Made by a program: the position numbers and the translations under genes. Shown in pieces: positions 26,280 to 50,745 of a stretch of 64,000 nucleotides of DNA. The DNA is taken from positions 1-64,000 of the IMG/VR virus record IMGVR_UViG_2816332575_000002; one strand, given 5' to 3'. Numbering within the stretch: the first letter of the stretch is position 1; the number at the start of each line of letters is the position of its first letter. The DNA is from a virus. Its lineage: Duplodnaviria; Caudoviricetes. The notes under the pieces were generated by a model. It saw only the letters and a list, made by a program, of their open reading frames with translations, searched no databases and was not told the DNA's origin.

Positions 26280-26313
26280 CGGGCCTCGCTCCACTGGAGT
26301 GGGGCCCGTTTTT
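26280..26313 (+). terminator. intrinsic terminator
   Basis: CGGGCCTCGCTCC-ACT-GGAGTGGGGCCCG followed by TTTTT. Confidence 0.7.
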
Positions 26314-26451
26314 CGTAGCTCAACAAGAGCACATCAGTTGCAGTGCAGGTGCACGAAAGTTATTGTGCTCTTGTTGCTACTGGTTGGTCGGCCGTGTGGG
26401 GCTGAGGACGGCTCGGGCTCACCGCCCGTCGATCTAGGGGCGGAGGGGTGC

Positions 26452-27441
26452 GTGGACACCACAGTGCCGGTGAAGAAGAAGGCGGCGCGGGCCGTAGCGG
26501 AGTGGCTGGGCTCGAAGGGGGAGGGCACCCGGAAGGAGTACCAGCGGGACATCGACCGGTACGTGGAGTACTGCGTGGGGCGCGGAGTCAACCCGCTGAA
26601 AGCCAAACCCGACAACGTCCGCGGATTCCTGGACGTGCTGCGGGTCGAGTACCGCCTCAAGGCACGTACCCGCCTCAGGGCCTACAAGGCGCTCAGCTCG
26701 TTCTACAGCTACGCCGCCGACTGGGACTTCCTGAAGAAGGGGCGCCCCAACCCGATGCGGTACGTCGATCCACCAAAAATCGACGACGACGAGCCCCGGC
26801 TGGGCATGACGATGGAGGAAGCCGTCGCCTTTCTGCGCGAGGCATTCTTCACCTCCACCCGGCTCTACGCCCTGGTGACCACACTCCTGCTGCTGGGCCT
26901 GCGGATCAGCGAGCTGCTCACGGCCGACATCGAGGACATAGGCATCGTCCACGGGCAGCGGGTCCTATGGGTGCAGCGCAAAGGCAAGCAGTCGAAGACG
27001 GCAATGCCCTTACCCGATATGGCATTTGCCGCTCTGGTCGTCTACATCGGTGATCGGCGCTCCGGCCCGATTTTCATCACCAGAACCGGCCGGCGGCTGA
27101 ACCGCCACGGCGCCTACGACACCATCACGCGCCTCGCCCGCCGCGCTGGCGTACCGCACGTCCACCCGCACCTGATCCGGGCGACCACCACCACCCTGCT
27201 GCTCGGGCTGGGCCAGGCCCTGGAGCGCGTCCAGGTCGTCATGGGACACAGCGACCCGAAGACCACGATCGCCTACAACAAGGTTCTGGAGAGGCTGCTC
27301 TACAGCCCGATCCACGTACTTGAAATCGCCCTGAAGGGAAGGGTCGATGAATCTCCACTCCCCGCGCTATCGCGTGATTTCAACGCCGCGGTCCACCGCG
27401 ATCCAGGCGAGCTGCGCCTGCTCCTGGACACAGCAGCTTGA
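26452..27441 (+). CDS. tyrosine recombinase (XerC/D-like integrase or resolvase)
   Basis: GLRISE, RKGK, HPHLIR, MGHSD and TIAY catalytic set; SAM-like N-domain; TTA at 27010. Confidence 0.9.
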   Translation: MDTTVPVKKKAARAVAEWLGSKGEGTRKEYQRDIDRYVEYCVGRGVNPLKAKPDNVRGFLDVLRVEYRLKARTRLRAYKALSSFYSYAADWDFLKKGRPNPMRYVDPPKIDDDEPRLGMTMEEAVAFLREAFFTSTRLYALVTTLLLLGLRISELLTADIEDIGIVHGQRVLWVQRKGKQSKTAMPLPDMAFAALVVYIGDRRSGPIFITRTGRRLNRHGAYDTITRLARRAGVPHVHPHLIRATTTTLLLGLGQALERVQVVMGHSDPKTTIAYNKVLERLLYSPIHVLEIALKGRVDESPLPALSRDFNAAVHRDPGELRLLLDTAA

Positions 27442-36897: not shown

Positions 36898-37015
36898 GTT
36901 GGGCAGTAACACTATTCCTGGTTGGTGAAGAGACTGGGGAGCAACGGCAAAAGTACGTACCGGCTTTCTGGTGCGTACGACCGCGGTCCCTGTCGTCACA
37001 CCAGAAGGAATGCAC

Positions 37016-38644
37016 ATGCCCTCTGCTATCACCGGTACGGGGATGCTGTCCCCGACTCCGACCGCCTATCCAGGCACCAATACGCAGCTCACTCCGGCGA
37101 TTCAGACCATCTGGTCGAAGGAGATCCTGTTCCAGTCCATGCCGATCCTCAGGTTCGAGCAGTTCGCGGTCTGACTTGGCCGCCTGCCGGAGTGATCTGG
37201 CAGTGATAATTCCGAGAATTGCTGGGATATCCTGCAAGACTCCAGCGCCACAGCGTAGCGGGAAACCGCAAGCGCGAAGGCTTGAAAAGCTGGAGGTAGG
37301 GACAATCAGCAGCCGAGCCCGCCTGGTGCAATCCGACGGGAAGGTTCAGAGACTATGTACGGGACACCCCACGCGGGTGAAGATATAGTCCGAACTGCGC
37401 GGAGACGCGTAGAGGCTGGCAGAAATGACCAGCCCGCCCTGGGATATTCCGGGGAGGTAACAGATTGCAAGAAGACTGAACTCGGGGTGGCCCCCGGACT
37501 TTCGATCAACTTCCTACGCTATAACAATCTGGAAGGTGCCAAGCAGCTCGTCGAAGGCGTCCGCATGGAAACTCAGGCGCTCTCGGCGTCTCAGTTCTCC
37601 ATTACCGTCGCTGAACATGGGGCTGCCGTGGCCGTGTCGGAACTCCTGCTCAATGCGTCCTTCGACGACGTTATGGCGAGCGCCTCGCGGCTCCTCGGCC
37701 GCAACATGGCCATGTACCTGGATGGCCAGTGTCGATCAGTTCTCCTGGGCGCTACCAGCGTGCTGTACGGGTACGACAAGTTCGGCGCTAACGCCGTCTC
37801 GACTGATGGCAAGCCGGGTAACCCGATCACGCGCCTGAGCCCCTATGACAAGGGAGTGCCGGCGACCGGGCGGGACGCTCTGACCGAGCACTACCTAACG
37901 TCCGCGGTCATCAAAGACGGCGTGGAGACACTCGCGGCGAAGAACATTCCCCGCATTTCCGATACCTATGTGTGCTTCATACACCCACATCAGAGCCGCT
38001 GGCTTCGGGAAGACCCGAGTTGGATTGAAGCGACCAAATACGCGGCGCCAGGGAATTTCTCAATTGGGGAAATCGGTAGGATCGATGACGTGATCTTCGT
38101 GGAATCCACGCAGGTCCGCCCGATCGCGAACTCGACGAATAAGAAGGTCTACCAGGCGACCATGATCGGTGACAATGCGTACGGTCATGCGATCAGCCTT
38201 CCGGTGGAACTCCGCGACGGCGGTGTGCTCGATTTCGGTTTCTCTGCGAAGCGTCAGGACAGCTTCGCTCTGGCCGCCTGACGGAGCAATCCGTCAGTGA
38301 AAACCCCGAGAATTGCTGGGACATTCTGCAAGACTCCAGCGCCACAGCGTAGCGGGAAACCGCAAGCGCGAAGGCTTGAAAAGCTGGAGGTAGGGACAAT
38401 CAGCAGCCGAGCCCGCCTGGCACAGGCCGACGGGAAGGTTCACAGACTAGGCACGGGGAGCCCCACGAGGGCTAAGGGATAGTCGGGTCTGCATGGAGAC
38501 ATGCAGAGGCTGGCAGAAATGACCAGCCCGCCCTGGGAAATCCGGGGAGGTAACAGAGCGCGTGAGCACGCACTTGCTTGGTACAGCATCTACGGAATGG
38601 GGATGATTACGGATCAGTCCGTGGTCACCCTGGAGACCAACTGA
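37016..38644 (+). CDS. major capsid protein (N4-gp56-like), spliced from 37016-37170, 37468-38239 and 38561-38644; 336 aa
   Basis: joined exons give 1011 nt in frame, restoring ...LRFEQFAV|KKTELGVAPG... and ...GGVLDFG|REHALAWYSIYG...; internal YVCFIHPHQ and GEIGRIDDVIFVES motifs. Confidence 0.9.
37171..37467 (+). ncRNA. group I self-splicing intron 1 (297 nt, no ORF)
   Basis: 5' exon ends in U, intron ends in G; P AAUUGCUGGGA, Q AAUCAGCAGCC, R GUUCAGAGACUA, S AAGAUAUAGUCC; P1 GCGGU/GCCGC; P10 CUUG/CAAG. Confidence 0.92.
38240..38560 (+). ncRNA. group I self-splicing intron 2 (321 nt, no ORF)
   Basis: paralog of intron 1; 5' exon ends in U, intron ends in G; R GUUCACAGACUA, S AAGGGAUAGUCG; compensatory changes in P2, P3, P7, P8 and P9. 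Confidence 0.92.
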
Positions 38645-38648
38645 ACGA

Positions 38649-38680
38649 AGACCCCCGGCGAGAGAATTCGCCGGGGGTCT
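38649..38680. terminator. bidirectional terminator after capsid gene
   Basis: AGACCCCCGGCGA / TCGCCGGGGGTCT. Confidence 0.75.
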
Positions 38681-38697
38681 CGTCTCTGCACCCAGAA

Positions 38698-39570
38698 TCA
38701 CGAAGTGTCGAATCGGGTACGCAGTCCTTCTGGGCTAACCGAGACCTCAATCTGGTTCCATTCGGGCCATCCGAGGTCGGCGTACCGGCGGCGCTCGCGT
38801 TGGCCGCGGAGCTTCATGAAGAGCAGGCCGTCGTGCAACCTCCCCTGGGCAGAGCCGCGGCCGTCACAGACGAGCCGGAGCAGGCCGTCACAGCCAAATG
38901 GTGTGTCGATCGGCGTGATGATCACTGTGCCTTCGTGGGCTTGGTGCAGCCACGCTTGTGGCACCTCCCGTACGGCCGCGGTGGAGATGATGCGGTCGTA
39001 CGGGCCCCGATCCGCGTAGCCCTCTTCACCGTCTCCGGCCACGACGAGTGGGTGAAGGTCGAGTTGGTGCAGCTTGTCTCTCGCGGTTTGTGCGAGGCCC
39101 TCGTCGATCTCGATGCTGACTACGTTGCTCGCGCCGGCCCGGTGACACAGGAGGGCAGTGCTGTAGCCGGTGCCCGTACCGATCTCCAGCACCTGGCCCC
39201 CTGGCTGAGGCGCCAGGTAGTGGAGCATGTCGACGACGACGGCAGGGCAGGAGATCGAGGAGGTGAATATGTCTGCCTCGGTGACCTCGTCGCCAGGATG
39301 TACGCGACCGTCGGCGATCTGCGTGACGAGGAGCTGCTTCGAGCGGTAGACGGCCTGCAACCACTCCCGCGGCTGTTCAGCCCGATTCAGAACTGCGACT
39401 CTGTCCTCCTCCTCGATCCACACCTGAGCCGGCACGAAGTGTTCTCGTGGGACGTCGAGGAACGCTTCACGCAGCCATGGACAGTCGTTGAAGTGTCCGC
39501 GCGTGCGTTTGTCGATCCTCTTCGCACAGGCGTTACGTAGTGCCGATGCGTCCGGATCAGCTGTCGTCAT
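38698..39570 (-). CDS. PIMT/PCMT-like (isoaspartyl-type) methyltransferase
   Basis: AFLDVPREHF, TSSISCP, VLEIGTGTGYSTALL, YDRIISTAAV, FMKLRGQR. Confidence 0.88.
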   Translation of the reverse strand: MTTADPDASALRNACAKRIDKRTRGHFNDCPWLREAFLDVPREHFVPAQVWIEEEDRVAVLNRAEQPREWLQAVYRSKQLLVTQIADGRVHPGDEVTEADIFTSSISCPAVVVDMLHYLAPQPGGQVLEIGTGTGYSTALLCHRAGASNVVSIEIDEGLAQTARDKLHQLDLHPLVVAGDGEEGYADRGPYDRIISTAAVREVPQAWLHQAHEGTVIITPIDTPFGCDGLLRLVCDGRGSAQGRLHDGLLFMKLRGQRERRRYADLGWPEWNQIEVSVSPEGLRTRFDTS

Positions 39571-39685
39571 CGTCTTGGGTGTCGTCGTCTTGATCGTCTT
39601 CGTTCTCGGGTGCCGGGTTCCCGGGGTCGCCGGGGGAGCTGAAGTCTCCGCCTACCTGCCCGTTGCCGTCTCGTCGGTGTCCCAC
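39557..39685 (-). CDS. 42-aa Asp-rich peptide, putative RiPP precursor (absent from ORF track)
   Basis: GAGGAGG RBS + GTG; MGHRRDGNGQVGGDFSSPGDPGNPAPENEDDQDDDTQDDDDS; overlaps PIMT start. Confidence 0.75.
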   Translation of the reverse strand: MGHRRDGNGQVGGDFSSPGDPGNPAPENEDDQDDDTQDDDDS

Positions 39686-39751
39686 GTCTGCCTCCTCAGC
39701 AGCTGAGTGGTGTCAGTGTGCTGAGCCGCAGGGCTTAATCACCAGCTCGCA

Positions 39752-41038
39752 TCATGGCGAAAGGGTGACAGCGGCCGTCAGCTCGCGTACTCCGGCCGCG
39801 CGGGGGTGTTGCTGGGCCAGGTCGGTGACGATCTGGCGGATGGCGGGCCGGTCGCGGACTTCGCCGCGCGAGGCCCGTACGGCGTGCAGCAGGGCGTCGG
39901 CGGCCGGTTCGGGCTTGGCCATCTGCCACCACGCGCGCGCGAGGTCGGTGTGCATTCGGGCCTTGCGCTCGGGCGTGGGGAACTGACCCTCGCGCAGGTC
40001 CGTACCGGCTTCCAGGGCAGCGCCGGCGTCGCCCAGTGCCCAGTGGACGCCGACGGCGTACAGGGCGACGGCCGCCGGGGTCAGCGGGAACAGGCGCTCG
40101 GGCGGGGCCTGCTCGGGCAGGAGGCGGCCAGCACGCTGGGCTTCGCCGATCGCGGCCAGGGCCTGACCGCGGTCTCCTGCGCGGGCCGCGCTGTACGCCT
40201 GGGTGCAGAGCATCTGGGCGTACGCGGAGGTCTGAGGGCTGTTGGTGAGTCCGGTCGCTTCGACCTGGGCCGCGGCCTGGAGGATCAGGCGTTGGGCGGC
40301 GGCGGGCTGGTCCTGGTGACGCAGGACGATGCTCATCTCGCGCGCGGCGGCCGCGGCGGCGAGCGGAGAGCCGGACAGGTCCGCGTAAACGGTGGCGCGG
40401 TCGGCGGCCTGCCGGGACTGCTCGTAGCGGCCGATTTTCGTGAGGACTTGGGAGAGCAGGCTGTACGTGGTCGACAGGCGGGCCAGGGCCAGTTCCTGCC
40501 GGGAGCGGGCTGCCACGTGCGCGTCACCCAGCAGGCCGGGCAGCACCTCTAGGAGCCGGGCGTGCTGGCCGGCGTCGAACAGGCCGCGGGCGAGGCTCAG
40601 GCGCTGGTCGAGGGGGGCTGCGGAGCCGCTGGGATCGGGGACGCCCGCCAGCGCGGCATCGACGCCGATCAGGAACTGCGCGGGGGCCGCGAGTCCGGCG
40701 GCGGCGAGCAGGGTACGGCGGCGCATCGGGTCCTCCTCGACTCGTGGACCATCGAGCGCCACCCTAGTGGCCGGTGAGCCGCCGAGGGCGAGCGACGCCG
40801 TCAGAACATCCGTCGGGATACCCACCTCTTCGGCGGCGCGTCGCAGCAGACACAGGTCGGAGGGGCAGCGGCGGGCTTCGAGCCGGGAGACCGTGGAGGG
40901 CGAGCACCCCAGGCGCCCGCCAAGGTCCTCCTGGCGCCACCCCCGGGCGGTGCGTCCGATCTTGACGAGCCCGCCGGCGTGCCGGGCGGCGACGAGGGAG
41001 CGGACCTTGTCGGAGCACCACAGGGTGTCACCGGACAT
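39752..41038 (-). CDS. XRE HTH regulator with helical (TPR-like) C-terminus
   Basis: RTARGWRQEDLGGRLGCSPSTVSRLE; MRRRTLL; PTPERKARMHTDLARAW. Confidence 0.85.
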   Translation of the reverse strand: MSGDTLWCSDKVRSLVAARHAGGLVKIGRTARGWRQEDLGGRLGCSPSTVSRLEARRCPSDLCLLRRAAEEVGIPTDVLTASLALGGSPATRVALDGPRVEEDPMRRRTLLAAAGLAAPAQFLIGVDAALAGVPDPSGSAAPLDQRLSLARGLFDAGQHARLLEVLPGLLGDAHVAARSRQELALARLSTTYSLLSQVLTKIGRYEQSRQAADRATVYADLSGSPLAAAAAAREMSIVLRHQDQPAAAQRLILQAAAQVEATGLTNSPQTSAYAQMLCTQAYSAARAGDRGQALAAIGEAQRAGRLLPEQAPPERLFPLTPAAVALYAVGVHWALGDAGAALEAGTDLREGQFPTPERKARMHTDLARAWWQMAKPEPAADALLHAVRASRGEVRDRPAIRQIVTDLAQQHPRAAGVRELTAAVTLSP

Positions 41039-41230
41039 AGCGCCTCCCGTACGCCAGGGGCCGGGGCCCGTTCCACGGTAGTGACTTTCCGTGTGCGCGT
41101 CGATGCCGTGTGCAGCATCTGCAAACGGCGTGCACAGCGCGCAAGTTGACCTCCGGCCCGGCCCGCCCGGTGGTGTCGTGGTCGTACGGCCCACGGCGGG
41201 CCGGACAGTCGCAGCACGCGGGAGGACACG

Positions 41231-41677
41231 ATGGTGACAGCGATCGAGACCAAGACGCAGGTCCGCGATCCGCGGGACTACGTGACGCGCGAGGTGTGGG
41301 ACCGGGAGATCCAGCTGCTGATGCGGGATCACCCGGTGGACGAGGTGATGGCCAACCGGCTGTTCGGGGCCGCGGTCTCGTACCTGATCACCGCGATGGA
41401 GAAGTGGGGCCAGCACCTGGAGCTGTGCTGCGGCCGCCTCGTCGACCTGGCGGTCCACGTGTTCATCCTGGACACGAAGAACTACCGCGAGTTCTGCCAC
41501 CGGCACTTCGGCGGCCGGTTCCTGGAACACATCCCGGAGATTGCGTTCAAGTACGACGGCAGTGTGGAGCGCACCGCCAAGGTGATCGCCGCCGCGGGCT
41601 TCGAGGTGGACTGGAAGCTGTGGGAGCGCGACTACGCGGCGTGCGGCCCGTGCCGCCCTGGGGAGGAGTGCCACTGA
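41231..41677 (+). CDS. glycine-rich-domain (DUF1399-like) protein
   Basis: VDLAVHVFILDTKNYREFC...FLEHIP motif; GGAGG RBS. Confidence 0.7.
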   Translation: MVTAIETKTQVRDPRDYVTREVWDREIQLLMRDHPVDEVMANRLFGAAVSYLITAMEKWGQHLELCCGRLVDLAVHVFILDTKNYREFCHRHFGGRFLEHIPEIAFKYDGSVERTAKVIAAAGFEVDWKLWERDYAACGPCRPGEECH

Positions 41678-41819
41678 CCGCCTGCACACCCTCGGCCCCG
41701 GGAGCGCTTGACGGTGTTCCTGGGGCCGAGGGCTGCTCGGGTGACTTCGCGGCAAACCGCCGCAGACGGCCGGGCGGGCCGGTACGGTGCCAGGTCCCGC
41801 CGTCCTCCCGAGGAGACGT

Positions 41820-42488
41820 ATGCCCCGCGCGCCACAGACCCCGGCCGAATACTGGGACAAGTACAAGCCGCACCGGGGCGCCGGCCCGCAGCCTCGGCCC
41901 GAGACCGGCCGGTTCGAGTGGACCCAGTACCTTGGCCACGGCCCCGGGGCCGAACTCCTCGGCTCCCCCCACCGTGCCCTGGACCTCGGGGCGGCCGAGG
42001 GCAAGGAGGCCGCGCACCTTGCCGAGCGCGGCGTCCGGGTGACCGGCGTGGACCTCTCCGCCGTCCAGGTCACCCGCGCCCGCGCCTGGTGGCACGACAT
42101 CGCGAACCTGGACTTCGTCCACGCCGAGGTGTGCGCCTACCTCTCCGACACCGAGGAGACATACGACGCGATCTACTCGGTGTGGGGCGCGGTCTGGTTC
42201 ACCGACCCCGAGCAGCTCCTCCCACTCATCGCCGCCCGCCTGGCCCCGGGCGGCACGTTCGTGTTCTCCCAGGCCGAGCCGTCACCAGACGCCTACGGTC
42301 CGCAGGCCATGCGGGGCAAGTGGCTGGAAGGCCGCGAGCGCGAGCTGACCGTACCGCGGTGGCAGTACCCGCCCGAGACCTGGGCCGACCACCTCAAGCG
42401 AGCTGGCTTCGCCCACGTGAACGCGCGCGTCCTGCCAGCACCGAACGACGAACGGTTGGGCACGCTGCTGGTCGTCTCTCACCGTTAA
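41820..42488 (+). CDS. class I SAM-dependent methyltransferase
   Basis: ALDLGAAEG, VTGVDLS, YDAIYS, LAPGG. Confidence 0.88.
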   Translation: MPRAPQTPAEYWDKYKPHRGAGPQPRPETGRFEWTQYLGHGPGAELLGSPHRALDLGAAEGKEAAHLAERGVRVTGVDLSAVQVTRARAWWHDIANLDFVHAEVCAYLSDTEETYDAIYSVWGAVWFTDPEQLLPLIAARLAPGGTFVFSQAEPSPDAYGPQAMRGKWLEGRERELTVPRWQYPPETWADHLKRAGFAHVNARVLPAPNDERLGTLLVVSHR

Positions 42489-42551
42489 CTCGGCGGCAAG
42501 TCCTGTAGGAGTGCGGGGCTAATGCCAACGGTCCTCATCGCGAGGATCGGA

Positions 42552-43391
42552 CTATGCCTTCTTTTTGAGGTGGGCGAGAACAGAATCGGGCGACTGATCA
42601 TGTTGGTCCTTGTCCTGTTCCCAGAGGTGCATGACCGACGCTGCGGCTTCTGCGAAGTCCGTGGGCAACCCTGCCTCGCGCAGCGACTCGGCGACCTCTT
42701 TCATCTCGGGCCCCCAGCGCCAGGCACGCGCGGCGACGCTGGGCAGGTAGTCCCGGCCCGAGAGGATGTCGGTCGGCATGATCCGTGCCTCGGCGGTAAG
42801 AAGGTCGCCGACCCCGTGTTCCTCAGCGAGTGCGTGAGCGACTCCGGCCAAGGTGCGGGCCGCCTTCTGGAAGCTGGCGAAACTCATCTTCAGCGCCGAG
42901 GCACTGCCGAGTGGGCCGCTCGTGGTCTTCGTGTGAACGGCAGTTCTCTCGAACAGCGACTCGGCCAGGTCGATCGCCGGCTGCGGTCCGGCCAGGTAGA
43001 GGCGCGCTGTCCGGCCCTCACTGTTGGGCGGCGGGCCGATGATCGCACCGTCCAGCACCGTGCAGGTTGCGGGGAGAGCCTGGGCGATCTGCATCATGCG
43101 TTGCGGGCTGATCGCGTTGGCGTCCAGGTACACGCCGGAGTACGCGTGCTTCGCCGCCGCGGCGGCGACCTCGTCGGCGACTTGCGGAGGGCACACCGAG
43201 AGCACCATCTCGCTCGCGGCCAGAGCGTCACCGAGGGAAGACGCGAGGGTGAGGCCGGCTGCCTCGGCGCGTTGGCGTGAACGCTCGCTTCGGCCATGCG
43301 GTACCCAGAGCACCCGGTGGCCGGCTCCTACGGCTTGGGCCGCCAGGGCGCTGCCCATGGAACCGGGACTGAGCAGGGTGATGGTGAGCAC
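42552..43391 (-). CDS. NAD(P)-dependent oxidoreductase (6PGD/3HIBDH-like, DUF1932-like C-terminus)
   Basis: LSPGSMGSALA, YLDANAISP, DGAIIGPPP, ASALKM, AWRWGPEMKEVA. Confidence 0.85.
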   Translation of the reverse strand: MLTITLLSPGSMGSALAAQAVGAGHRVLWVPHGRSERSRQRAEAAGLTLASSLGDALAASEMVLSVCPPQVADEVAAAAAKHAYSGVYLDANAISPQRMMQIAQALPATCTVLDGAIIGPPPNSEGRTARLYLAGPQPAIDLAESLFERTAVHTKTTSGPLGSASALKMSFASFQKAARTLAGVAHALAEEHGVGDLLTAEARIMPTDILSGRDYLPSVAARAWRWGPEMKEVAESLREAGLPTDFAEAAASVMHLWEQDKDQHDQSPDSVLAHLKKKA

Positions 43392-44767
43392 TATTTGCCT
43401 CCGGAGGGGAGTTCGAGCCTCAGTCGCTCTTGGTGGGCGCTGACCGCCTCCTGGAGGCTGATAGCCACCGGTGACGTGGAGCTGGGGTGTCGGTCAAGAA
43501 TTCTCGTGAAGTGCTCCAGGCGTTTCCGGACGCTGTCCGTACCTCGGCGGGCGCTGACCTGGAGCACGGCGTGCACCTGGGGAGCGGCCCCGTCGAGGTC
43601 GCCACGGCCAAGCCGTGCCACGGCCAGGTCCATGCGAGCGAGGGCCATCTCGCCGAGGCGCCGTTGGCCGGGGGGCACGGATTCGAACCTGTTCACGGCC
43701 TCGTCCGCAGCAGCTTCAGCGTCGCTCAGGTGTTCACTGCCGCCGAGCCAGAGGTGGGTCGTGCTCGTGTAGAACATTTGCTTTTCGATGGGGAACGCCA
43801 TCATTCCGCCCGGCAGGTCATCAGCTGCTGTGAGCTGGTCCCGTAGGCGTTCGGCTTCGCGGAGCGAGGCGAGAGCATCGGCGGGCTGGTTGAGCTGGCC
43901 GTACGCGCGGGCTTTGATGCTGTGGAGGCGAATGAGGGAAGTGCCCTGTTCAGGGACGAATTCGGCGCCGCCCTCGGCCAGCCGGACCGCGTCCATGGGC
44001 CGCCCGTCCCAGTAGGCGATCAGCGCTTGCAGGCCCCGGACCCAGACCCGCAGACCGTTGTGCCGGGCCAGCTCGCCGCACATGAAGGCGGTACGCGCCT
44101 GCGTTTCTGCCGCCGGAAATTTGCCCAGGTCGAAGCTGGCATTCGCCAGTACACCGCACAGCACGCCGGCCGCAACGTACAAGTCGTGCGTCATGCCTGG
44201 TGGCTGCCGCCCCTCCAGCAGCTCGAAGGCTCGGTCTCGGAGCGCTCGAACTTCGTGGAAGACCGGCCATACGGGCCGGTTCGGGTAAGTCGTCACTATC
44301 CGGCGGATGTCGGCCTCCAACTGTTCCATCGTCGTGGGACCGCAGTTGCTGCTCTCCGCCCACGCCGCGAAGTCGGCTGATTCGCTCGCCGCTGCCATCA
44401 CCACGTCCTCAGATAGGTCCCCATTCCCGCCGTTCGCCTGCGGTTCCCATTCTGGCGAGCTGGTGCCGATGGGAGCGGTCGGGGGGGTGCTCGGTGCAGG
44501 AGCGAAGAGGGTTTGAACCGAGGAAGGGCAGAACATCGCCTCCAAGATGCGGCGAGCCTCGTTGCGGGGAAGCCCCTTCATCTCGCCGTGAGCCCATCGC
44601 AGGAACTGCCGCTTCTCGATCGTCGCCGTTGCCAGCCCAGCAGGCCCTTCCGTGTCGGCGAGCTGCTGCGCTGTGGCCCGGTAGCGGTCACGGAACACCT
44701 CGTACTTCGTCCACTTGCGGTGCTGGATGAGCAACTGAAACAGGGTGATTGGACTCATCGGTGCCAC
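43391..44767 (-). CDS. XRE-like regulator with TPR-like domain
   Basis: IEKRQFLRWAHGEMKGLPR...LEAMF N-terminus; helical repeats. Confidence 0.8.
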   Translation of the reverse strand: MAPMSPITLFQLLIQHRKWTKYEVFRDRYRATAQQLADTEGPAGLATATIEKRQFLRWAHGEMKGLPRNEARRILEAMFCPSSVQTLFAPAPSTPPTAPIGTSSPEWEPQANGGNGDLSEDVVMAAASESADFAAWAESSNCGPTTMEQLEADIRRIVTTYPNRPVWPVFHEVRALRDRAFELLEGRQPPGMTHDLYVAAGVLCGVLANASFDLGKFPAAETQARTAFMCGELARHNGLRVWVRGLQALIAYWDGRPMDAVRLAEGGAEFVPEQGTSLIRLHSIKARAYGQLNQPADALASLREAERLRDQLTAADDLPGGMMAFPIEKQMFYTSTTHLWLGGSEHLSDAEAAADEAVNRFESVPPGQRRLGEMALARMDLAVARLGRGDLDGAAPQVHAVLQVSARRGTDSVRKRLEHFTRILDRHPSSTSPVAISLQEAVSAHQERLRLELPSGGK

Positions 44768-45035
44768 GACTCCCTTTGGTCCTCGTCTGCGGTGCCACCC
44801 ACGCTAAGGCGCTAACGCGGCGTGCGAACAGCGTTGTTGGCGCCAGTGCCCTAACAAGGGAAGAGAAGACATCAACAAGACATCACAAGGCAGTAGAAGA
44901 CATCGTTAGGGCACTGGTTAAGACACATCTGCCCGTCCAAACTGCGGCCTCAGCGCCACCGGAAACTGTCGGCGCGTCGCTTCCTCCACCCACCCGCTGC
45001 CGTGGCTGACACCGTCAGATTCTGGAGACCAGCAG

Positions 45036-45554
45036 ATGACCAGCGCCCACAGAGACCAGCAACCGTCCAGCCTCCTGCCGCTTACGGTGGCCGAGCGGGG
45101 CCTGTACACCCCCTGCACCAGGCTGCTCGTACGGCCGCTGTCCGGGGATGGCAAGGGACTGTCCCTGGACGAGCTCAGGGTGTGTGGCCGGGCGAGCGCG
45201 GAGGATGTCTGCCCGTACGTGCACGAGTACGGCGACGCGGCAGAACTGGTCACCTCGGAGCTGGTCACCAACGCCCTGACGCACGGGGCCAGAGGCGACG
45301 AGCCGGTGTACGTTGAGTTCCCCTCGTCTCCGTGGTCGTGGAAAATCCGGGTGCTGGACCCGTCCCCGGAGCCGCCCCGGGAAGTCGTTGCGTACGACGA
45401 CGACACGAGCGGGCGTGGCCTGTTCCTCGTGCACTTCTTCGCTGGCCAGTACGACGGTCACCTGGACGTGGAGATCACCGGTGCTGGCAAGGCCGTCACC
45501 TGCACGCTCCCCATCCCCGCACCCAACCGCGTCGCCGATGAGGTGAGCGCGTGA
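45036..45554 (+). CDS. HATPase (RsbW-like) ATP-binding protein
   Basis: ELVTSELVTNALTHG, VLDP, SGRGLFLV, GKAV. Confidence 0.85.
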   Translation: MTSAHRDQQPSSLLPLTVAERGLYTPCTRLLVRPLSGDGKGLSLDELRVCGRASAEDVCPYVHEYGDAAELVTSELVTNALTHGARGDEPVYVEFPSSPWSWKIRVLDPSPEPPREVVAYDDDTSGRGLFLVHFFAGQYDGHLDVEITGAGKAVTCTLPIPAPNRVADEVSA

Positions 45555-46087
45555 TGCTCGGCTTCACCTGGGGGCGCCCCTCAAGGGCTTCTCGCCGGGC
45601 TCGGCCCGCGGCCGAGGACCCGAACCGTACGGCGCCGCCGCCTGAGGCCCCGCCGGTGCAGGTCAGCGGGCGTGGCGTCAGCGTCGAGTGGGGCGAGCCG
45701 CTGGAGCTGCCCGATGGGGAGCGTCTGCTGACGTGGTGGGTGGGGTACGCGCAGTCGGCCTGCGGGTGGCCGGAGAGCTACCTGGACCGTGACGACGGCA
45801 AGGCGCAGCACGTGACGCACGCCGTGGACTGGCTGTACCAGTCGCTGCGTCGGCTCGACGTGTCCGGCGAGCATCCGCTGCACCTGGAGCTGGAGCACTT
45901 ACGGCAGGCCCGTACCCGGCAGCAGTACGCCGAGCACCTGTCCGGCCGGCGCTCGTCCCTGACCATCAGCGTCGCCACCGGCGACGAGTACCACGTGTTC
46001 ACGGTGCGGTGCCGCGCCGTCGCCCTCCCGGCCTCCGTCCCGAGCGCTGACACGCCCGAGGCTGTGCTCGTCGGAGGTGCGGTGTGA
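45551..46087 (+). CDS. hypothetical protein
   Basis: GTGA coupling; one TTA codon. Confidence 0.6.
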   Translation: MMLGFTWGRPSRASRRARPAAEDPNRTAPPPEAPPVQVSGRGVSVEWGEPLELPDGERLLTWWVGYAQSACGWPESYLDRDDGKAQHVTHAVDWLYQSLRRLDVSGEHPLHLELEHLRQARTRQQYAEHLSGRRSSLTISVATGDEYHVFTVRCRAVALPASVPSADTPEAVLVGGAV

Positions 46088-46536
46088 GGGGGCCGGAGGC
46101 GATTCGGCGCGGGCTGTGCTGGCTGGCCTGCAAACCGTCGAGCCCGCGTCCGCTGGTGTGGGCCGGAGTCGCCCGGTCCTGGGGCCAGACCGTGTCGCTG
46201 TACTCGTGCGAGCCGTGCCTGCGGCTGTGCATCCAGCGCGCCCTGGCGGGTGTCAGCGACGAACTGTGCTGGCTGTGGTGCGGCCGGCGCGACGTGCCCA
46301 CCGATCCGGTCGGCGTGTTCGAGGTCGCGGTGCGGACCTGGCGCACCGTGCCCGGCCGGCCGCCGGTTCTGGTCTCGTGCTGGGAGTACCGGGCCACCCT
46401 GTACGGCTGCGCGATGTGCACCACCCCGTTCCAGCGTTTCGTCCGCAAGGGCCCGGTGGTGGAGCAACCGCCCGACGCCCTGGGTCCTCACCGCCCCCTC
46501 ATCTCCCTCTCCGCCCTCGCGGCTGACGCCGCCTGA
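46084..46536 (+). CDS. Cys-rich duplicated Zn-ribbon-like protein
   Basis: two CWLxC...LYxCxxC units. Confidence 0.6.
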   Translation: MRGPEAIRRGLCWLACKPSSPRPLVWAGVARSWGQTVSLYSCEPCLRLCIQRALAGVSDELCWLWCGRRDVPTDPVGVFEVAVRTWRTVPGRPPVLVSCWEYRATLYGCAMCTTPFQRFVRKGPVVEQPPDALGPHRPLISLSALAADAA

Positions 46537-46540
46537 CCTC

Positions 46541-47041
46541 TTGGAGATCCCTGTGGCTCCCCCCGCCACCTCTCTTCCCGCATCGCTGACCGTCTGTTCG
46601 GCTCTGGTCGTGAGCCGCACGCCGGACGGCACCCGGACCGCCCTGCTGGTGCGCACGCGGGACATGCCGAAGGGCCTGTACCGGCTGCCCGTCGGCCAGC
46701 CGAACCGCCACGGCATCGTCGATCATTTCGACCTGCGCGACGCCGTACGGTCCGGGACCGGACTGGGCGTCATCGTCGGCCGGGTGCTGGTCAGGGACCA
46801 GGTCTCGGGTGCCACCGGCGTCGTCCATCACTACGCGCGGCTGTGCTCGATCGACGGCGAGAACCAGACGGTCCGCCTCGGCGGCGCCCTGGCCGACTAC
46901 CTGTGGGCCACCGAGGACGACTTGGTCCTGTGCGGGCCCGATCTGTCCCCGGTCGTCAAGGCGGCCCTGCGGGCCCTGAGCGAGGGCACCCGCGCCGAGC
47001 TTGCCGACGGCCAGCCTGCCGGCGCCTGCACGGGGGTGTGA
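46541..47041 (+). CDS. degenerate NUDIX-fold protein
   Basis: LLVR...YRLPVG...LRDAVRSGTGL; Nudix-box glutamates absent; start uncertain. Confidence 0.5.
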   Translation: MEIPVAPPATSLPASLTVCSALVVSRTPDGTRTALLVRTRDMPKGLYRLPVGQPNRHGIVDHFDLRDAVRSGTGLGVIVGRVLVRDQVSGATGVVHHYARLCSIDGENQTVRLGGALADYLWATEDDLVLCGPDLSPVVKAALRALSEGTRAELADGQPAGACTGV

Positions 47042-47658
47042 CGGTGTCCGACCTCCTCACCCTCCCCCAAGCGTGCAAGGCCGATGCCGCACCGCCACGC
47101 TACGTCGCCCGGCCCGCCGAGCGGGAAGCCGACGCGCAGAACATGATCCACCTCATCCAGGCCCACCGCGCATGGCGGGACCAGCACGGCGCCGCCGTGA
47201 ACGAGCCGCCGGTGCCCGCAGTGCTGGGCCTGGTCGGCGAGATCGACCAGTTGGGGCACCCGATGTCGTGGGTGCTGTACGCGGGGGACCGGCTGCGGGC
47301 GTGCTATTTGCTGGCGGTCGACTGCGACCAGCGCAGGGTGCAGGCCGCCGACATCCACGTCAACCCCGACGCATCCCGGACGGGCGTCGGCCAGCCCGCG
47401 GCGAGGCTCGGCCTCACCCCCAGCACCCCGGTGATCGAGGTGCTGCTTACCTACTGGCTGGTGCACTACGCATTCGACGGCGGCGCGCGCGAAGCAGTCG
47501 TCACGATCGGCGACCGCAGCGAACCCTTTCCCCCCGCGCGCATCGCCTGGATGGACCAGACGGTGGACACCCGGATACCCGACGACGCGCACCTGGCCCG
47601 CTGCTGGGACCGGCAGCCCCGCCCGCGCGCCTCGCCAGAGTTTCCCCCGCCGGGCTGA
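47038..47658 (+). CDS. GNAT-like hypothetical protein
   Basis: IHVNPDASRTGVG degenerate GNAT motif. Confidence 0.45.
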   Translation: MTVSDLLTLPQACKADAAPPRYVARPAEREADAQNMIHLIQAHRAWRDQHGAAVNEPPVPAVLGLVGEIDQLGHPMSWVLYAGDRLRACYLLAVDCDQRRVQAADIHVNPDASRTGVGQPAARLGLTPSTPVIEVLLTYWLVHYAFDGGAREAVVTIGDRSEPFPPARIAWMDQTVDTRIPDDAHLARCWDRQPRPRASPEFPPPG

Positions 47659-48217
47659 GACCGCAGTCCCGGGGGAAGGCGCGGGCCCCGTGACCCGCGC
47701 CGGGTACGGCCGGCCGGGACCGGCCGTACCCACCGCCTTCCCTGCCATCGTGCCGCTCCCGCCCTTTCTCCTGCGGGGTGGAACGGCGCGGCGGGGAAGG
47801 CGCCGTGCGGCTGCTCTTCTCCGAGCGGAGTTCCGTGAGCAGCCGGGCCGACCGAGGGGGCGGCCTGTCGGCTCGCCGGGCGTTGGGCCTCACCCGGCGA
47901 GCCGCCACGGTGCCCCCGCACGCCATGCCCGTACAAGCCCTCCCGGCGGGGCGCTGGTTACCGAGTTGTCCAGCGCCCCGCCGGGAGATGCGGTGCCACG
48001 GCACCGCAACCGCGCGGCTCCTCCAGGGGCTGGTCCCCCTTGGAAGTCGGAGCCAGCCCGCACTCCAGCGGCCAGCAAAAGGGGCGGGTGCGCGGGGCCG
48101 CCGGGCCCGTCCCGTGGAGCCCGGCGGCCACACAATCCACTCCGGCCGTGGAGACAGCGGGTCCTGCGGCCGGAGTGCACGACCGATCCACGTCCGAAGT
48201 CCAACGCAGGCAGAGAG

Positions 48218-48907
48218 ATGCTCACCAACACCACCGCCTCACCCCGTCTTCCTGGACACCGCGTGCACCAGGAGCCACGAGAGAAATCCGTCGTCCCGTA
48301 CATCGCGCTGCGCGTCGGTGAAAGCCCGGTCGCCAAGCAATTGGACCTGGAACTGCGCGGCGGCCCCGGCACGTGGGGGCTGGCCTACGCCGATGAGGTC
48401 CCCGACGACCGCGACAGCCACGATGTCCTGTGGCAGCGCTATCACGAGACCCGCGACTGTGCGGGCAGGGTGACCGGCGCCCCGGTGGCCGGACGAGTGC
48501 ACCCCGGCCGGCTCCGGGAGACGGTGAGCCGCCTTACCTGCCCGGTTTGCAACCACCCCGCCGACAAGACCGACGACGGTTACCTCTTCCTGGTGCCGCG
48601 CGCCAAGAGCCGCATCGAAGCACCGCTGACCACGTGGCCCCCGGTGTGCCGGGAACACGCCACCGTCCACGCCCGCGACCGCCCCGACCTGCGGGACGGG
48701 TACACCGCGATTCGGTCGGCCGACCCCACTCTGCACGGCGTGCGTGGACGCCAGTACCGCCGCGCCGGCACCGCCTTCGAGGTCGCCAGGCGCGATGCCC
48801 GCATGCCCTACGGGCACGCCCAACAGCGCTGGATCGTCGCTTATCGGCTCGTCCGCAGGCTGACACACCCGACCGTCGCGATCGAGGCCGCCGACGCCGC
48901 CCGGTGA
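48218..48907 (+). CDS. conserved Cys-motif hypothetical protein, paralog A
   Basis: VPYI...LAYADE..DRD..VLW...CPVC..PAD..DGYLFL...PPVC. Confidence 0.65.
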   Translation: MLTNTTASPRLPGHRVHQEPREKSVVPYIALRVGESPVAKQLDLELRGGPGTWGLAYADEVPDDRDSHDVLWQRYHETRDCAGRVTGAPVAGRVHPGRLRETVSRLTCPVCNHPADKTDDGYLFLVPRAKSRIEAPLTTWPPVCREHATVHARDRPDLRDGYTAIRSADPTLHGVRGRQYRRAGTAFEVARRDARMPYGHAQQRWIVAYRLVRRLTHPTVAIEAADAAR

Positions 48908-48967
48908 CCCGCGCCGCACGGCAGCGGCCTCACCGCCCTTCCGACCACAGCCTCCAAGGAGTGCTTC

Positions 48968-49396
48968 GTGCCCCTTCGCACCCGGTATGACCAGTTGACG
49001 GCCACTGAGGCCCGGTGTCTGACCTACCTCGCCGACGGTCTGAGCACGACCGACACGGCCGACAAGATGGGCACCAAGCCCCAAACGGTCCAAAGTCACC
49101 TGCGGCGCATTCGCATCAAGTTGGGGGACGGTCCGCGCGCGTTCGTGCTGCATCGCGCCTACGTCAAACGCCAACTCCCGCTTCCTTTGGCCGCCAAGGC
49201 GCCGGTCCGCTTCACCCACGAAGACCTGCGGATATGGAACCTGGTCGCCACCGGCAAGGTCCCTGCGGGGGCAGCCGGGACCACCACCCGGACCGCCATC
49301 AAAGCGCTCATGCAGAAGGCGGGAGCCGAGACCGAAACGCACCTGATCCAGCTCGGCCACACCTACCGGCTGCTGACCGGGCCCGAAGAGACCTGA
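48968..49396 (+). CDS. LuxR-type HTH regulator (tandem HTH)
   Basis: LTATEARCLTYLADGLS...TVQSHLRRIRIKLG. Confidence 0.8.
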   Translation: MPLRTRYDQLTATEARCLTYLADGLSTTDTADKMGTKPQTVQSHLRRIRIKLGDGPRAFVLHRAYVKRQLPLPLAAKAPVRFTHEDLRIWNLVATGKVPAGAAGTTTRTAIKALMQKAGAETETHLIQLGHTYRLLTGPEET

Positions 49397-49732
49397 GCCA
49401 CCGGACACGTATCCAGCCCTGACCAGGCCGAGAGGCCCATGAGCAACACGCCAACCGCGCGGGCCCCGCCAGCCATCCCGCTCACACCGGCCACCGTCGA
49501 CCCTCCCGTCCCGTAGAGAGAACCGGTTGACCAACCACTTCCTGCCACCGGCGCCAGCGGCCCACCGGTCGCTGCCCCGCCAGCCCGGCACCTACTACTG
49601 CGGGGACACCCACATACGCATCGACGGAACCACGGCATTCACCGTGCCCGTGCGCCTGTCCGTCCCCCCGCCTGGCCAAAAAGACCGCGTGCCGGCCCCC
49701 GGCACCTCCCCGCTGCCACCGGAGCACACCCC

Positions 49733-50611
49733 ATGACCACGCCCGAGACCCCCGAGACCCCGATCTGCGAAGTACGGCAGGAAGCCGGCCGCGAGCACGA
49801 CGCGCTCGGCGCCCGGATCGCGGCCCTCGCCGAAACCGCCGCTCCCGTTGTGGAAGCCGTCACCGGCCTTCCGCTGCCCGTCCGGCCGTTGCTCCGCCTC
49901 GTGACTGTCGAGGCCCTGATCGCCACCCGCCGGGAGCACACCGACGCGATGATGCACCGCCTGCGCGGTGAGGGCTACGGCCAGCAGTTGGTCGACGAGG
50001 CGGAGTTCGCCAGGGCGCGCGAGCGCTTCGACAACGGCGAGCGGGGCCTCGCCGCGAACTGGAAGAACATCCAGGCGATCAGCTACGAGGACGCCCGGAT
50101 GCGCCCGCAGATCCTCATCATCGCGCGCTCCGTCGTCCACCATGGCCACGACGACGACCAGCTCCTGCGCACGATCGCCCACGAGCTGACCCACCTCGCC
50201 CAACACCGGGCCACCGGCGGACGTGCGCTCGATTTCGTCATGTCGCCCTACGGCTACGGCATGCGAATGCCCGGTACCAAGGAACTCGCCCACTGCGCGG
50301 CGCGGTTCCTGATCGAAGGCCACGCATCCTGGGCCGACCACCAGGTGACCACCCAACTCATCGGCCAGCCTCTGGGCTGGCACACCGACCCCACCACCGA
50401 CGAGCAGCGCGCGACCAAGCGGCTCTACGACGACGGCTGCGCGTTCGTCGCAACCGCCATCGACCAGGTCGGCCTGGAGTCCTTCAACGCCACATGGCGC
50501 CATCTGCGCACCTCCTGCCCGGTCGAGACCGAGGTGGACGATGTCACCGGCTGGCTGCGCCGCAACTACATCCCCACCCCGACCATGGCCGCCAGCCCAC
50601 CCCGTGAGTAA
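49733..50611 (+). CDS. zincin-like metallopeptidase
   Basis: IAHELTHLAQ plus downstream IEGHASW. Confidence 0.8.
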   Translation: MTTPETPETPICEVRQEAGREHDALGARIAALAETAAPVVEAVTGLPLPVRPLLRLVTVEALIATRREHTDAMMHRLRGEGYGQQLVDEAEFARARERFDNGERGLAANWKNIQAISYEDARMRPQILIIARSVVHHGHDDDQLLRTIAHELTHLAQHRATGGRALDFVMSPYGYGMRMPGTKELAHCAARFLIEGHASWADHQVTTQLIGQPLGWHTDPTTDEQRATKRLYDDGCAFVATAIDQVGLESFNATWRHLRTSCPVETEVDDVTGWLRRNYIPTPTMAASPPRE

Positions 50612-50745
50612 CCGAGCCCGGTGACCTGCGCCCCGCCCCCACACCGGGCGCAGGCCGCCGACCGCACGGACTGCCCCACTCACCGGTGCCCGGCGGCCAC
50701 GCCTCCCCGCACACCGCCGGGCACCTCCACCCCGGGAAGCACCTC

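What the first reader, a model, noticed from the sequence alone, without database searches (positions are those of the whole stretch)
37016..38644. Major capsid gene split by two ORF-less group I introns
Seen: the capsid frame stops at 37172 and 38279. Removing 37171-37467 and 38240-38560 restores a 336-aa frame with junctions FAV|KKTE and DFG|REHA. Both inserts follow the group I rule (exon U, terminal G), carry P/Q/R/S elements, and form P1 with a U-G wobble and an adjacent P10. The two copies covary: P2 (CUGCCGGA-GUGA-UCUGGCAG vs CUGACGGA-GCAA-UCCGUCAG), P3 (UUCCG/CGGGA vs CCCCG/CGGGG), the P7 end pair (G-C vs C-G), P8 and P9. Established: phage group I introns are best known in DNA-metabolism genes of T-even and Firmicute phages, often with homing endonucleases. 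Inference: two endonuclease-free ribozymes in the most abundant structural gene of a high-GC actinophage is unusual, and capsid synthesis would need two splicing events.
Basis: partly seen in the sequence, partly recalled or inferred. Interest (0 to 1): 0.92.

Follow-up and report, generated by a model that had tools for sequence, protein, structure and literature searches.

The report
Capsid gene split by two introns
The only major capsid gene of this Streptomyces-type prophage is interrupted by two small self-splicing-type (group I) RNA introns with no genes of their own, a real example of an intron family that is common in capsid genes of related phages.

Summary
Removing 37171-37467 (297 nt) and 38240-38560 (321 nt) gives a 336-aa N4-gp56-family capsid protein. 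It aligns without gaps across both joints with intron-less homologues.

Rfam's group I model hits both inserts. Intron 1 scores 56.9 bits, above the cut-off of 50. Intron 2 scores 47.9 bits, just below it, with E 1.3e-10.

Relatives of these introns occur in 17 of 118 related capsid loci, at 9 sites. In 14 copies of the window's type, 97.4% of cells pair and 38 of 83 pairs show compensatory changes. None of 500 shuffles reached these values. The guide sequence changes with the insertion site.

The "very unusual" reading is overstated:
- Cluster J mycobacteriophages already have spliced capsid and tail introns (PMC3706429).
- crAss-like phages have capsid genes with several introns (PMC7886860).
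- This scan noted the same thing on eight other genomes.

Two points do add something:
- The window's core type shares only its 3' third with the proven BAKA intron.
- The two copies share an exact 95-nt block, which suggests gene conversion.

P10 is clear for intron 1 only. Splicing itself is untested. Verdict: new member of a known kind.

The parts
37016..37170 (+). Capsid exon 1 (aa 1-51 plus two bases of the Val52 codon); ends in U
   Evidence: Translation and alignment to intron-less homologues; weak phrog_1357 match, E 0.015
37171..37467 (+). Group I intron 1, 297 nt, ORF-less, core type A, at site aa52. An in-frame stop (TGA 37172-37174) follows directly after the 5' splice site.
   Evidence: RF00028 56.9 bits, above the gathering score; nhmmer type-A profile 302 bits; covariation; z -5.0
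37175..37183 (+). Guide region of intron 1. CUUG pairs with the 3' exon CAAG (P10). GCCGC pairs with the 5' exon GCGGU (P1, with a U-G pair at the splice site).
   Evidence: Sequence; P1 table. The same P10 is seen in 5 of 5 copies at this site, one of them with a G-U pair.
37468..38239 (+). Capsid exon 2 (last base of codon 52, then aa 53-309); ends in U
   Evidence: TIGR04387 N4-gp56 major capsid protein, 121 bits against a cut-off of 60; phrog_1357 E 1.5e-46; 4365 homologues
38240..38560 (+). Group I intron 2, 321 nt, ORF-less, core type A, at site aa309. The exon frame runs 13 codons into it, to TGA 38279-38281.
   Evidence: RF00028 47.9 bits, E 1.3e-10, under the gathering score of 50; nhmmer type-A profile 286 bits; z -3.7
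38246..38268 (+). Extra hairpin in the P1 loop of intron 2 (GCGAAGC, 9-nt loop, GCUUCGC). It falls within the 24 extra alignment columns that account for the length difference from intron 1.
   Evidence: Sequence; alignment gap
38273..38276 (+). Guide of intron 2: GCCG pairs with the 5' exon CGGU
37232..37326 (+). 95-nt block (P5 extension, P4', start of P6) identical to 38326-38420 in intron 2
   Evidence: Longest exact match; segment identities
38326..38420 (+). Partner of the 95-nt identical block, in intron 2
38561..38644 (+). Capsid exon 3 (aa 310-336, REHALAWY...ETN, plus the stop)
   Evidence: Alignment to homologues
38650..38679 (+). GC-rich inverted repeat directly after the capsid stop; terminator-like
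   Evidence: Read from the sequence only; no terminator scan was run

Best explanation
Two related group I ribozymes without an ORF sit in the single N4-gp56-family major capsid gene of a temperate, BRock-like prophage with a contractile tail.

Likely mechanism:
- The late transcript carries both introns.
- Each intron folds into the group I core (P1-P9.2).
- Each pairs its guide (GCCGC or GCCG) with the end of the upstream exon (GCGGU or CGGU).
- Splicing runs through the usual two transesterifications started by a free guanosine.
- Only the doubly spliced mRNA encodes the 336-aa capsid protein.

Shown here: the anatomy, the conserved and covarying fold, the guide-exon match, and the exact restoration of a conserved protein. 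Inferred: catalysis itself, and its efficiency in the cell.

The introns belong to a prolific family in structural genes of soil phages. The two copies in this gene have exchanged their central 95 nt, most likely by gene conversion.
For: Rfam and protein evidence:
- The Rfam group I model matches both inserts.
- The spliced protein aligns without gaps across both joints with 15 homologues. These include intron-less ones at 84-87% identity.
- Both joints lie in invariant or nearly invariant motifs. K1, T3, E4, L5 and G6 open exon 2. D255 and G257 close it, followed by R-E-H.

Fold, on 14 type-A copies from 8 loci plus the window:
- 97.4% of 1152 cells form pairs, against 30-44% when partners are slid by 1-3 columns.
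- 38 of 83 pairs have changes on both sides.
- The covariation score is 0.364 against a shuffled mean of 0.133, reached by 0 of 500 shuffles.

Guide and exon:
- The guide tracks the exon across sites: CGGU/GCCG at six sites, UCCU/GGGA at aa38, GCCU/GGGC at aa316.
- More guide/exon combinations appear in other host genes.
- P10 tracks the 3' exon at three sites: CAAG/CUUG, UCGAG/CUCGG and CUUC/GAAG.

Genome context:
- This is the only capsid gene of this family in the 9.6-Mb genome.
- These are the only two group I hits in the genome.
- Terminase, portal, integrase, tail sheath and baseplate genes surround it.

Link to a proven intron:
- A sister core type (type B) in the same capsid family matches the BAKA intron, which RT-PCR showed to splice. 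The match is 69% identity over 76% of the query and 112.6 bits by nhmmer. The splicing evidence is in PMC3706429.
Against: - There are no RNA data, so splicing is not shown.
- Intron 2 scores 2.1 bits under Rfam's gathering score.
- Intron 2 has GG where 10 of the 13 other type-A copies have AU in the conserved J8/7 stretch. No other copy has GG there.
- Intron 2 lacks the innermost P7 pair.
- Intron 2 has no convincing P10.
- The last six bases of intron 2 (AGAGCG) are complementary to CGCUCU just 5' of its guide. This could compete with correct docking of the 3' splice site.
- Translation of unspliced RNA would run through the P1 loop and the guide of intron 2 before it stops.
- The prophage carries a 12.7-kb foreign block right after the capsid gene, so its viability is not certain.
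- The pair counts use a structure I derived from intron 1, which favours the unslid register.
Confidence: 0.88

Rival explanations
1. Decaying prophage. The inserts are group I introns by descent, but one of them (most likely intron 2) no longer splices. The capsid gene is then effectively a pseudogene.
For: - Intron 2 scores under the Rfam gathering score.
- It has a unique GG in J8/7 and has lost a P7 pair.
- Its P10 is weak.
- A 12.7-kb host-like block interrupts the head-neck gene order relative to BRock and L020.
Against: - All three exons are intact and in frame. Exon 2 is 84-95% identical to the closest homologues, with no gaps at the joints.
- All 16 helices of the model are paired in intron 2, except one P7 pair.
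- Differences between the two copies are mostly compensatory.
- The same site (aa309) is occupied by a related intron in L020, and in L147, L148, L163 and L194.
Confidence: 0.1
2. The inserts are not RNA introns. They are copies of a small DNA repeat (MITE-like) that simply disrupt the gene, and their resemblance to group I introns is incidental.
For: - There are two copies 88% identical and about 1.1 kb apart.
- They have no ORF.
Against: - Rfam E-values are 2.6e-13 and 1.3e-10.
- Covariation supports an RNA fold, not a DNA repeat.
- All 23 copies in related loci lie on the coding strand inside the capsid gene.
- Removing them at a U...G pair restores the conserved protein exactly.
- The guide sequence changes with the exon.
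Confidence: 0.01
3. The introns splice, and the phage also uses them as a control point. Capsid synthesis would be gated by GTP level, by translation, or by the order in which the two introns splice.
For: This rests on inference alone.
- Two splicing events are needed in the most abundant late protein.
- A stop codon sits right at the 5' splice site of intron 1, and 13 codons into intron 2.
- Exon skipping between tandem phage introns is reported for Twort orf142 and for the SIOphi polymerase gene (PMC11878797, passage read).
- Here, skipping exon 2 would shift the frame.
Against: - 91 of 120 related loci align as a single full-length match, that is, without an insert.
- Presence or absence is patchy among close relatives and the sites vary. 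This is the pattern of a selfish element, not of a conserved regulator.
Confidence: 0.08

Closest known systems
ORF-less 265-nt group I intron in the minor tail gene of Cluster J mycobacteriophages BAKA and Optimus (Pope et al. 2013, PMC3706429; JF937090 28186-28450)
   Same: - It is a small ORF-less group I intron in a virion structural gene of a temperate actinophage of about 110 kb.
- The exon ends in U and the intron ends in G.
- The GGCCGCC guide-region motif is the same.
- The 3' module is homologous (P7', P9, GGCAGAAAUGACC hairpin, GUAACA tail): nhmmer 36.8 bits, E 1e-11, over profile positions 205-295.
- Its core type (type B) sits in the same capsid family, at aa33-52 among the 25 mapped copies; the looser census also places type-B copies further along the gene.
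   Different: - The window's introns are type A. Their P3-P8 core, with a long P5 extension, has no detectable sequence similarity to BAKA.
- The host gene is the capsid gene, not a tail gene.
- There are two copies in one gene.
- Splicing is proven for BAKA and untested here.
Capsid-gene intron of mycobacteriophage LittleE (Cluster J; PMC3706429; JF937101 gene 13)
   Same: - It is a group I-type intron in the major capsid gene of a high-GC actinophage.
- It was spliced in vivo, shown by RT-PCR and N-terminal sequencing (passages read).
- It matches the type-B profile at 86 bits.
   Different: - It is 820 nt long and carries an endonuclease gene on the opposite strand.
- It is a single intron.
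- It sits in a different capsid family.
Capsid genes with several introns in crAss-like phages (Yutin et al. 2021, PMC7886860)
   Same: The capsid ORF is split into several fragments by group I introns, which confuses gene callers (passage read).
   Different: - The hosts are Bacteroidetes phages.
- The introns were found through their endonuclease domains, so they carry ORFs.
- No sequence relation was tested.
Three related group I introns in orf142 (tail tube gene) of Staphylococcus phage Twort
   Same: Several closely related small introns sit in one late structural gene, and exon skipping occurs. Source: PMC11878797 discussion (passage read). The number and relatedness of the introns are recalled, not read.
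   Different: - The host is a low-GC Firmicute.
- No sequence similarity was found: Twort-like phages did not appear among the blastn hits.

Membership tests
Group I intron (Rfam RF00028) | Covariance-model score at or above the curated gathering score (50 bits) | tested here: met
   Intron 1: 56.9 bits, E 8.9e-12 for the whole window
Group I intron (Rfam RF00028) | The same score criterion, for intron 2 | tested here: inconclusive
   47.9 bits, E 1.3e-10, full model length matched, 2.1 bits under the cut-off. It is 88% identical to intron 1.
Group I intron | The 5' exon ends in U, paired with G of an internal guide (P1) | tested here: met
   GCGGU/GCCGC for intron 1 and CGGU/GCCG for intron 2. 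The guide changes with the exon at other sites.
Group I intron | [quoted passage not shown] | tested here: met
   G at 37467 and at 38560. These are the only U...G choices that restore the conserved protein.
Group I intron | Conserved core helices P3-P9, including the P3/P7 pseudoknot, supported by covariation | tested here: met
   In 14 copies, 97.4% of cells pair and 38 of 83 pairs are compensatory. None of 500 shuffles reached this, and slid controls gave 30-44%.
Group I intron | Guanosine-binding G-C pair in P7 next to a bulged base (feature recalled from the literature) | tested here: met
   The G-C pair at alignment columns 211/253 is present in 14 of 14 copies, after an unpaired column 210.
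Group I intron | P10 between the guide region and the 3' exon | tested here: inconclusive
   Intron 1: CAAG/CUUG, 4 bp, adjacent to P1. Intron 2: at most 2 bp. P10 is not required in all group I introns (recalled).
Group I intron | Self-splicing with a guanosine cofactor; spliced RNA in vivo | not testable with these tools
   No RNA holder was listed for this stretch.
Cluster J (BAKA-type) intron lineage | Sequence homology along the whole ribozyme | tested here: not met
   Only the 3' third matches: type-A profile against BAKA, 36.8 bits over positions 205-295. The type-B profile against the window gives 32.5 and 20.2 bits, in the 3' part only.
Mobile group I intron with a homing endonuclease | An endonuclease ORF inside the intron | tested here: not met
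   The longest stop-free stretches are 71 and 66 aa. A relative in L120 does carry an Endonuclease VII ORF (PF02945, E 1.6e-23).
N4-gp56 family major capsid protein (TIGR04387) | Score above the curated cut-off, and full-length colinearity with family members | tested here: met
   Exon 2 alone scores 121.3 bits against a cut-off of 60. The spliced protein is colinear with 326-332-aa members.

The most novel reading that the evidence does not exclude
The window shows a snapshot of an undescribed, highly mobile family of modular group I introns without ORFs.

- A shared targeting end (guide plus P2) and a shared tail end (P9-P9.2) are combined with at least two unrelated catalytic cores, types A and B.
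- Copies spread to new sites in highly expressed phage structural mRNAs by reverse splicing, guided by a 4-5-nt guide. Six of nine capsid sites share the CGGU target.
- Copies within one gene then homogenise each other by gene conversion, which would explain the 95-nt identical block.

If true, this would be a natural system where endonuclease-independent intron transposition can be studied in bacteria.
Probability: 0.3. Interest if true: 0.7.

Novelty: new member of a known kind. Interest (0 to 1): 0.42.

Why it matters
- Annotation. Gene callers see only a truncated capsid protein. Here the ORF 37355-38281 (308 aa) starts inside intron 1. Several public homologues are about 40 aa short at the N-terminus, at the aa47/aa52 sites (P0001, P0017, P0056).
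- Biology. The finding adds a well-supported case to a large family of small introns in capsid, portal and other genes of soil-phage contigs. I found no account of this family in print.
- A test bed. Two near-identical ribozymes share one guide sequence in one mRNA. This gives a natural setting for studying splicing order, exon skipping and intron-to-intron gene conversion.
- What it does not change. The known picture stays the same: selfish group I introns colonise conserved phage genes.

Tried and rejected
Things tried that gave nothing:
- RNA evidence: the look-up of sequencing runs (kind rna) on 36950-38700 listed no RNA holder. No reads could therefore be laid, and this says nothing about expression.
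I could not inspect the contigs of the truncated homologues P0001, P0008, P0017 and P0056.
- Cultured phages: blastn of the whole region gave 5 weak records. blastn of intron 1 alone gave 51 records, none covering 80% or more of the query. The partial P4-P5 matches were in phiKZ-like, Xanthomonas jumbo and Staphylococcus epidermidis phages.
- Same genus: intron 1 DNA had no match at E <= 1e-10 in 400 sampled genomes. Only 2 candidates per genome were scored, and some bases are withheld.
- Free-standing endonucleases: Pfam on 10 ORFs between 25.4 and 34.2 kb found an integrase, a MazG-like protein, a KTSC domain and a GNAT, but no HNH or GIY-YIG. Other ORFs were not scanned.

Readings rejected:
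- Rfam's own P1 register for intron 2 (38256 onward) carries several non-standard pairs, and it would add residues that no homologue has.
- A 3' splice site at G38556 would fit the AGAGCG/CGCUCU complementarity. It gives DFG-S-A-stop and loses the conserved C-terminus.
- My automatic junction scorer failed for the two aa309 introns, because its downstream window ran past the stop codon. Those joints were set by hand from the alignment.
- My P1 finder mis-picked P4 for L023 and L020b, and an internal site for L120. I read those by eye.

Other limits:
- The subgroup (IA, IB or IC) was not determined, because no subgroup models are on hand.
- Literature searches found no paper on introns in N4-gp56-type capsid genes or in Streptomyces (pro)phages. 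The library lacks most subscription journals. Supplements were not opened and may hold more.

Full report
**What is there**

The + strand of 37016-38644 holds a capsid reading frame broken twice.
- From ATG 37016 the frame reads to ...Q-F-A-V and meets TGA at 37172.
- A second open stretch carries the bulk of the protein and ends at TGA 38279.
- A third stretch ends at the true stop, 38642-38644.
- Exon 2 alone matches the N4-gp56 major capsid family: TIGR04387 at 121 bits against a cut-off of 60, phrog_1357 at E 1.5e-46, and Pfam Phage_capsid_4 and Phage_capsid_3.
- It has 4365 database relatives at E <= 0.001. Most are 326-332 aa long.

**The joints**

I joined 37016-37170, 37468-38239 and 38561-38644 inside a script. 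This gives 336 codons plus the stop.
- The product aligns with 15 homologues without a gap at either joint: EQFAV|KKTELG and LDFG|REHALAWY.
- Both joints fall in the most conserved motifs of the family.
- Among boundary choices that leave a U at the exon end and a G at the intron end, these are the ones that restore the conserved sequence.

**The inserts are group I introns**

- Rfam's RF00028 matches 37161-37412 at 56.9 bits, above the gathering score of 50.
- It matches 38256-38506 at 47.9 bits, E 1.3e-10, just under the gathering score.
- These are the only two hits in the 9.6-Mb genome. They are also the only matches in the window to profiles of the intron family.
- The two inserts are 88% identical.
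- The extra length of intron 2 comes from 24 extra alignment columns at its 5' end, which hold a hairpin in the P1 loop (38246-38268).
- Neither has room for an endonuclease. The longest stop-free stretches are 71 and 66 aa.
- Folding energies are well below shuffled controls: z -5.0 and -3.7, with 0 of 100 shuffles as good in each case.

**Relatives, and the test of the fold**

I collected 37 loci from species genomes and 80 from viral contigs that encode this capsid family, plus phage BRock.
- 91 of 120 loci give one full-length match. That total includes two copies of the window itself.
- A profile of the introns finds 23 copies in 17 of the 118 loci that are not the window. The split is 10 of 37 genome loci, 7 of 80 viral loci, and none in BRock.
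- All 23 lie on the coding strand inside the capsid gene.
- With the window's two, the 25 copies occupy nine sites: aa33, 38, 47, 52, 138, 239, 252, 309 and 316.
- Site aa52 (intron 1) is shared with L020, L039, L089 and L105. Site aa309 (intron 2) is shared with L020.

The copies fall into two core types.
- Both types share the guide-P2 end and the P9-P9.2 tail.
- They differ throughout P3-P8.
- There are 14 type-A copies, including both window introns, and 11 type-B copies.

I wrote out a P2-P9.2 structure with the P3/P7 pseudoknot and counted pairs on the 14 type-A copies.
- 97.4% of 1152 cells pair.
- 38 of 83 pairs have changes on both sides.
- The covariation score is 0.364, against 0.133 for shuffles. 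None of 500 shuffles reached it.
- Sliding the partners by 1-3 columns drops pairing to 30-44%.
- The structure was derived from intron 1, which favours the unslid register. The number of compensatory pairs is much less sensitive to this.

**Guide sequences**

- Six sites have an exon ending in (C/G)GGU with a guide GCC(G).
- Site aa38 has UCCU with GGGA. Site aa316 has GCCU with GGGC.
- In other host genes the pairing partners change together again, for example CGAU with GUCG and UCGU with GCGA. Among 68 distinct 5' regions there, 30 carry GGCCGCC, 10 carry GGGCCC and 28 carry something else.
- P10 also follows the 3' exon at three sites.
- For intron 1 it is CAAG/CUUG, next to P1.

**How common the family is**

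A conserved type-A core motif occurs in 107 stretches of viral contigs.
- The type-A profile gives 188 hits there. 37 of them lie next to exons of this capsid family.
- I scanned ten flanking exons from other loci. Three are another major head family (phrog_10), one is a portal, three are phrog_13692 of unknown function, and three have no match.
- Some genes carry four to six copies. One capsid gene (L156) carries five.
- A looser census over all 136 capsid-bearing loci gives about 14 sites. That set includes loci chosen for having the intron, and several pieces of the same contigs, so it is not a frequency.
- One relative (L120) carries an Endonuclease VII ORF in its P1 loop.

**Relation to known introns**

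- Pope et al. 2013 showed spliced introns in the LittleE capsid gene and in the BAKA/Optimus tail gene (PMC3706429).
- A type-B copy matches BAKA at 69% identity over 76% of its length.
- The type-B profile scores 112.6 bits on BAKA and 86 bits on LittleE.
- The window's type-A introns match BAKA only in the 3' third (36.8 bits, E 1e-11).
- So they are cousins of a proven intron, not members of the same lineage along their whole length.
- No cultured phage record covers 80% or more of intron 1.
- crAss-like phages provide a precedent for capsid genes with several introns (PMC7886860).
- Twort orf142 and the SIOphi polymerase gene provide a precedent for exon skipping between tandem introns (PMC11878797).
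- Eight earlier notes of this scan describe the same phenomenon on other genomes.

**The two copies compared**

- They share an exact 95-nt block, 37232-37326 and 38326-38420.
- In that central segment they are 96% identical to each other, and at most 82% identical to any other copy.
- In the flanks they are only 82-84% alike.
- In the flanks each is closer to a copy at its own site in another genome. The 3' part of intron 1 is 89% identical to L039 at aa52. The 5' part of intron 2 is 92% identical to L020 at aa309.
- The simplest reading is gene conversion between two resident introns.

**Context**

- The gene lies in a temperate prophage with an integrase, large terminase, portal, scaffold-position gene, tail sheath, baseplate and tape-measure-like genes.
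- Compared with BRock and L020, a block of about 12.7 kb with higher GC (38.7-51.4 kb) is inserted between the capsid and neck genes.
- This is the only capsid gene of this family in the genome.

**Verdict**

The introns are almost certainly genuine, and the protein cannot be made without two splicing events. Splicing itself is untested, and intron 2 is the weaker candidate. The case is a new member of a known kind, inside a large family that I did not find described in print.

Noticed in passing
window 38698-51417: A block of about 12.7 kb with higher GC (0.67-0.74) lies between the capsid gene and the neck and tail genes. It holds a PCMT-type methyltransferase, an XRE-type regulator and several ORFs without family matches. 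In BRock and L020 the genes right after the capsid gene correspond to window 51.5-53.8 kb, so this block is an insertion.
   Followed up: partly
alignment A3 (loci L007, L010-L012, L028, L042, L046, L069, L089, L120 against the window): There are two intron core types in the same capsid family. They share the guide-P2 end and the P9-P9.2 tail but have unrelated P3-P8 cores. This looks like modular recombination between ribozymes.
   Followed up: partly
L120:1718-2444: A 727-nt relative at site aa33 carries a 150-aa Endonuclease VII (PF02945) ORF in its P1 loop. It is the only endonuclease-bearing copy among the 25 mapped.
   Followed up: partly
L156, L139, L150, L164, L189 (viral contigs): Some genes carry four to six copies of the intron family within a few kb. 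L156 has five hits inside one capsid gene. The other loci are in genes I did not identify.
   Followed up: no
window 38555-38560 against 38266-38271: The last six bases of intron 2 (AGAGCG) are complementary to CGCUCU directly 5' of its guide, which is where P10 should form. Using G38556 as the 3' splice site would truncate the protein. The role of this pairing is unexplained.
   Followed up: partly
window 37355-38281: A 308-aa ATG-started ORF begins inside intron 1 and ends inside intron 2. This is what a gene caller would report as the capsid protein. Public homologues P0001, P0017 and P0056 are truncated in the same way.
   Followed up: partly
window 26299-27441: A tyrosine integrase gene lies about 3 kb upstream of the terminase, inside the phage-like low-GC region.
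   Followed up: no
phage records OQ790161, AF399011 and others: The P4-P5 part of intron 1 is 70-77% identical over about 70-145 nt to unannotated stretches in phiKZ-like, Xanthomonas jumbo and Staphylococcus epidermidis phages. These are probably their own group I introns.
   Followed up: no
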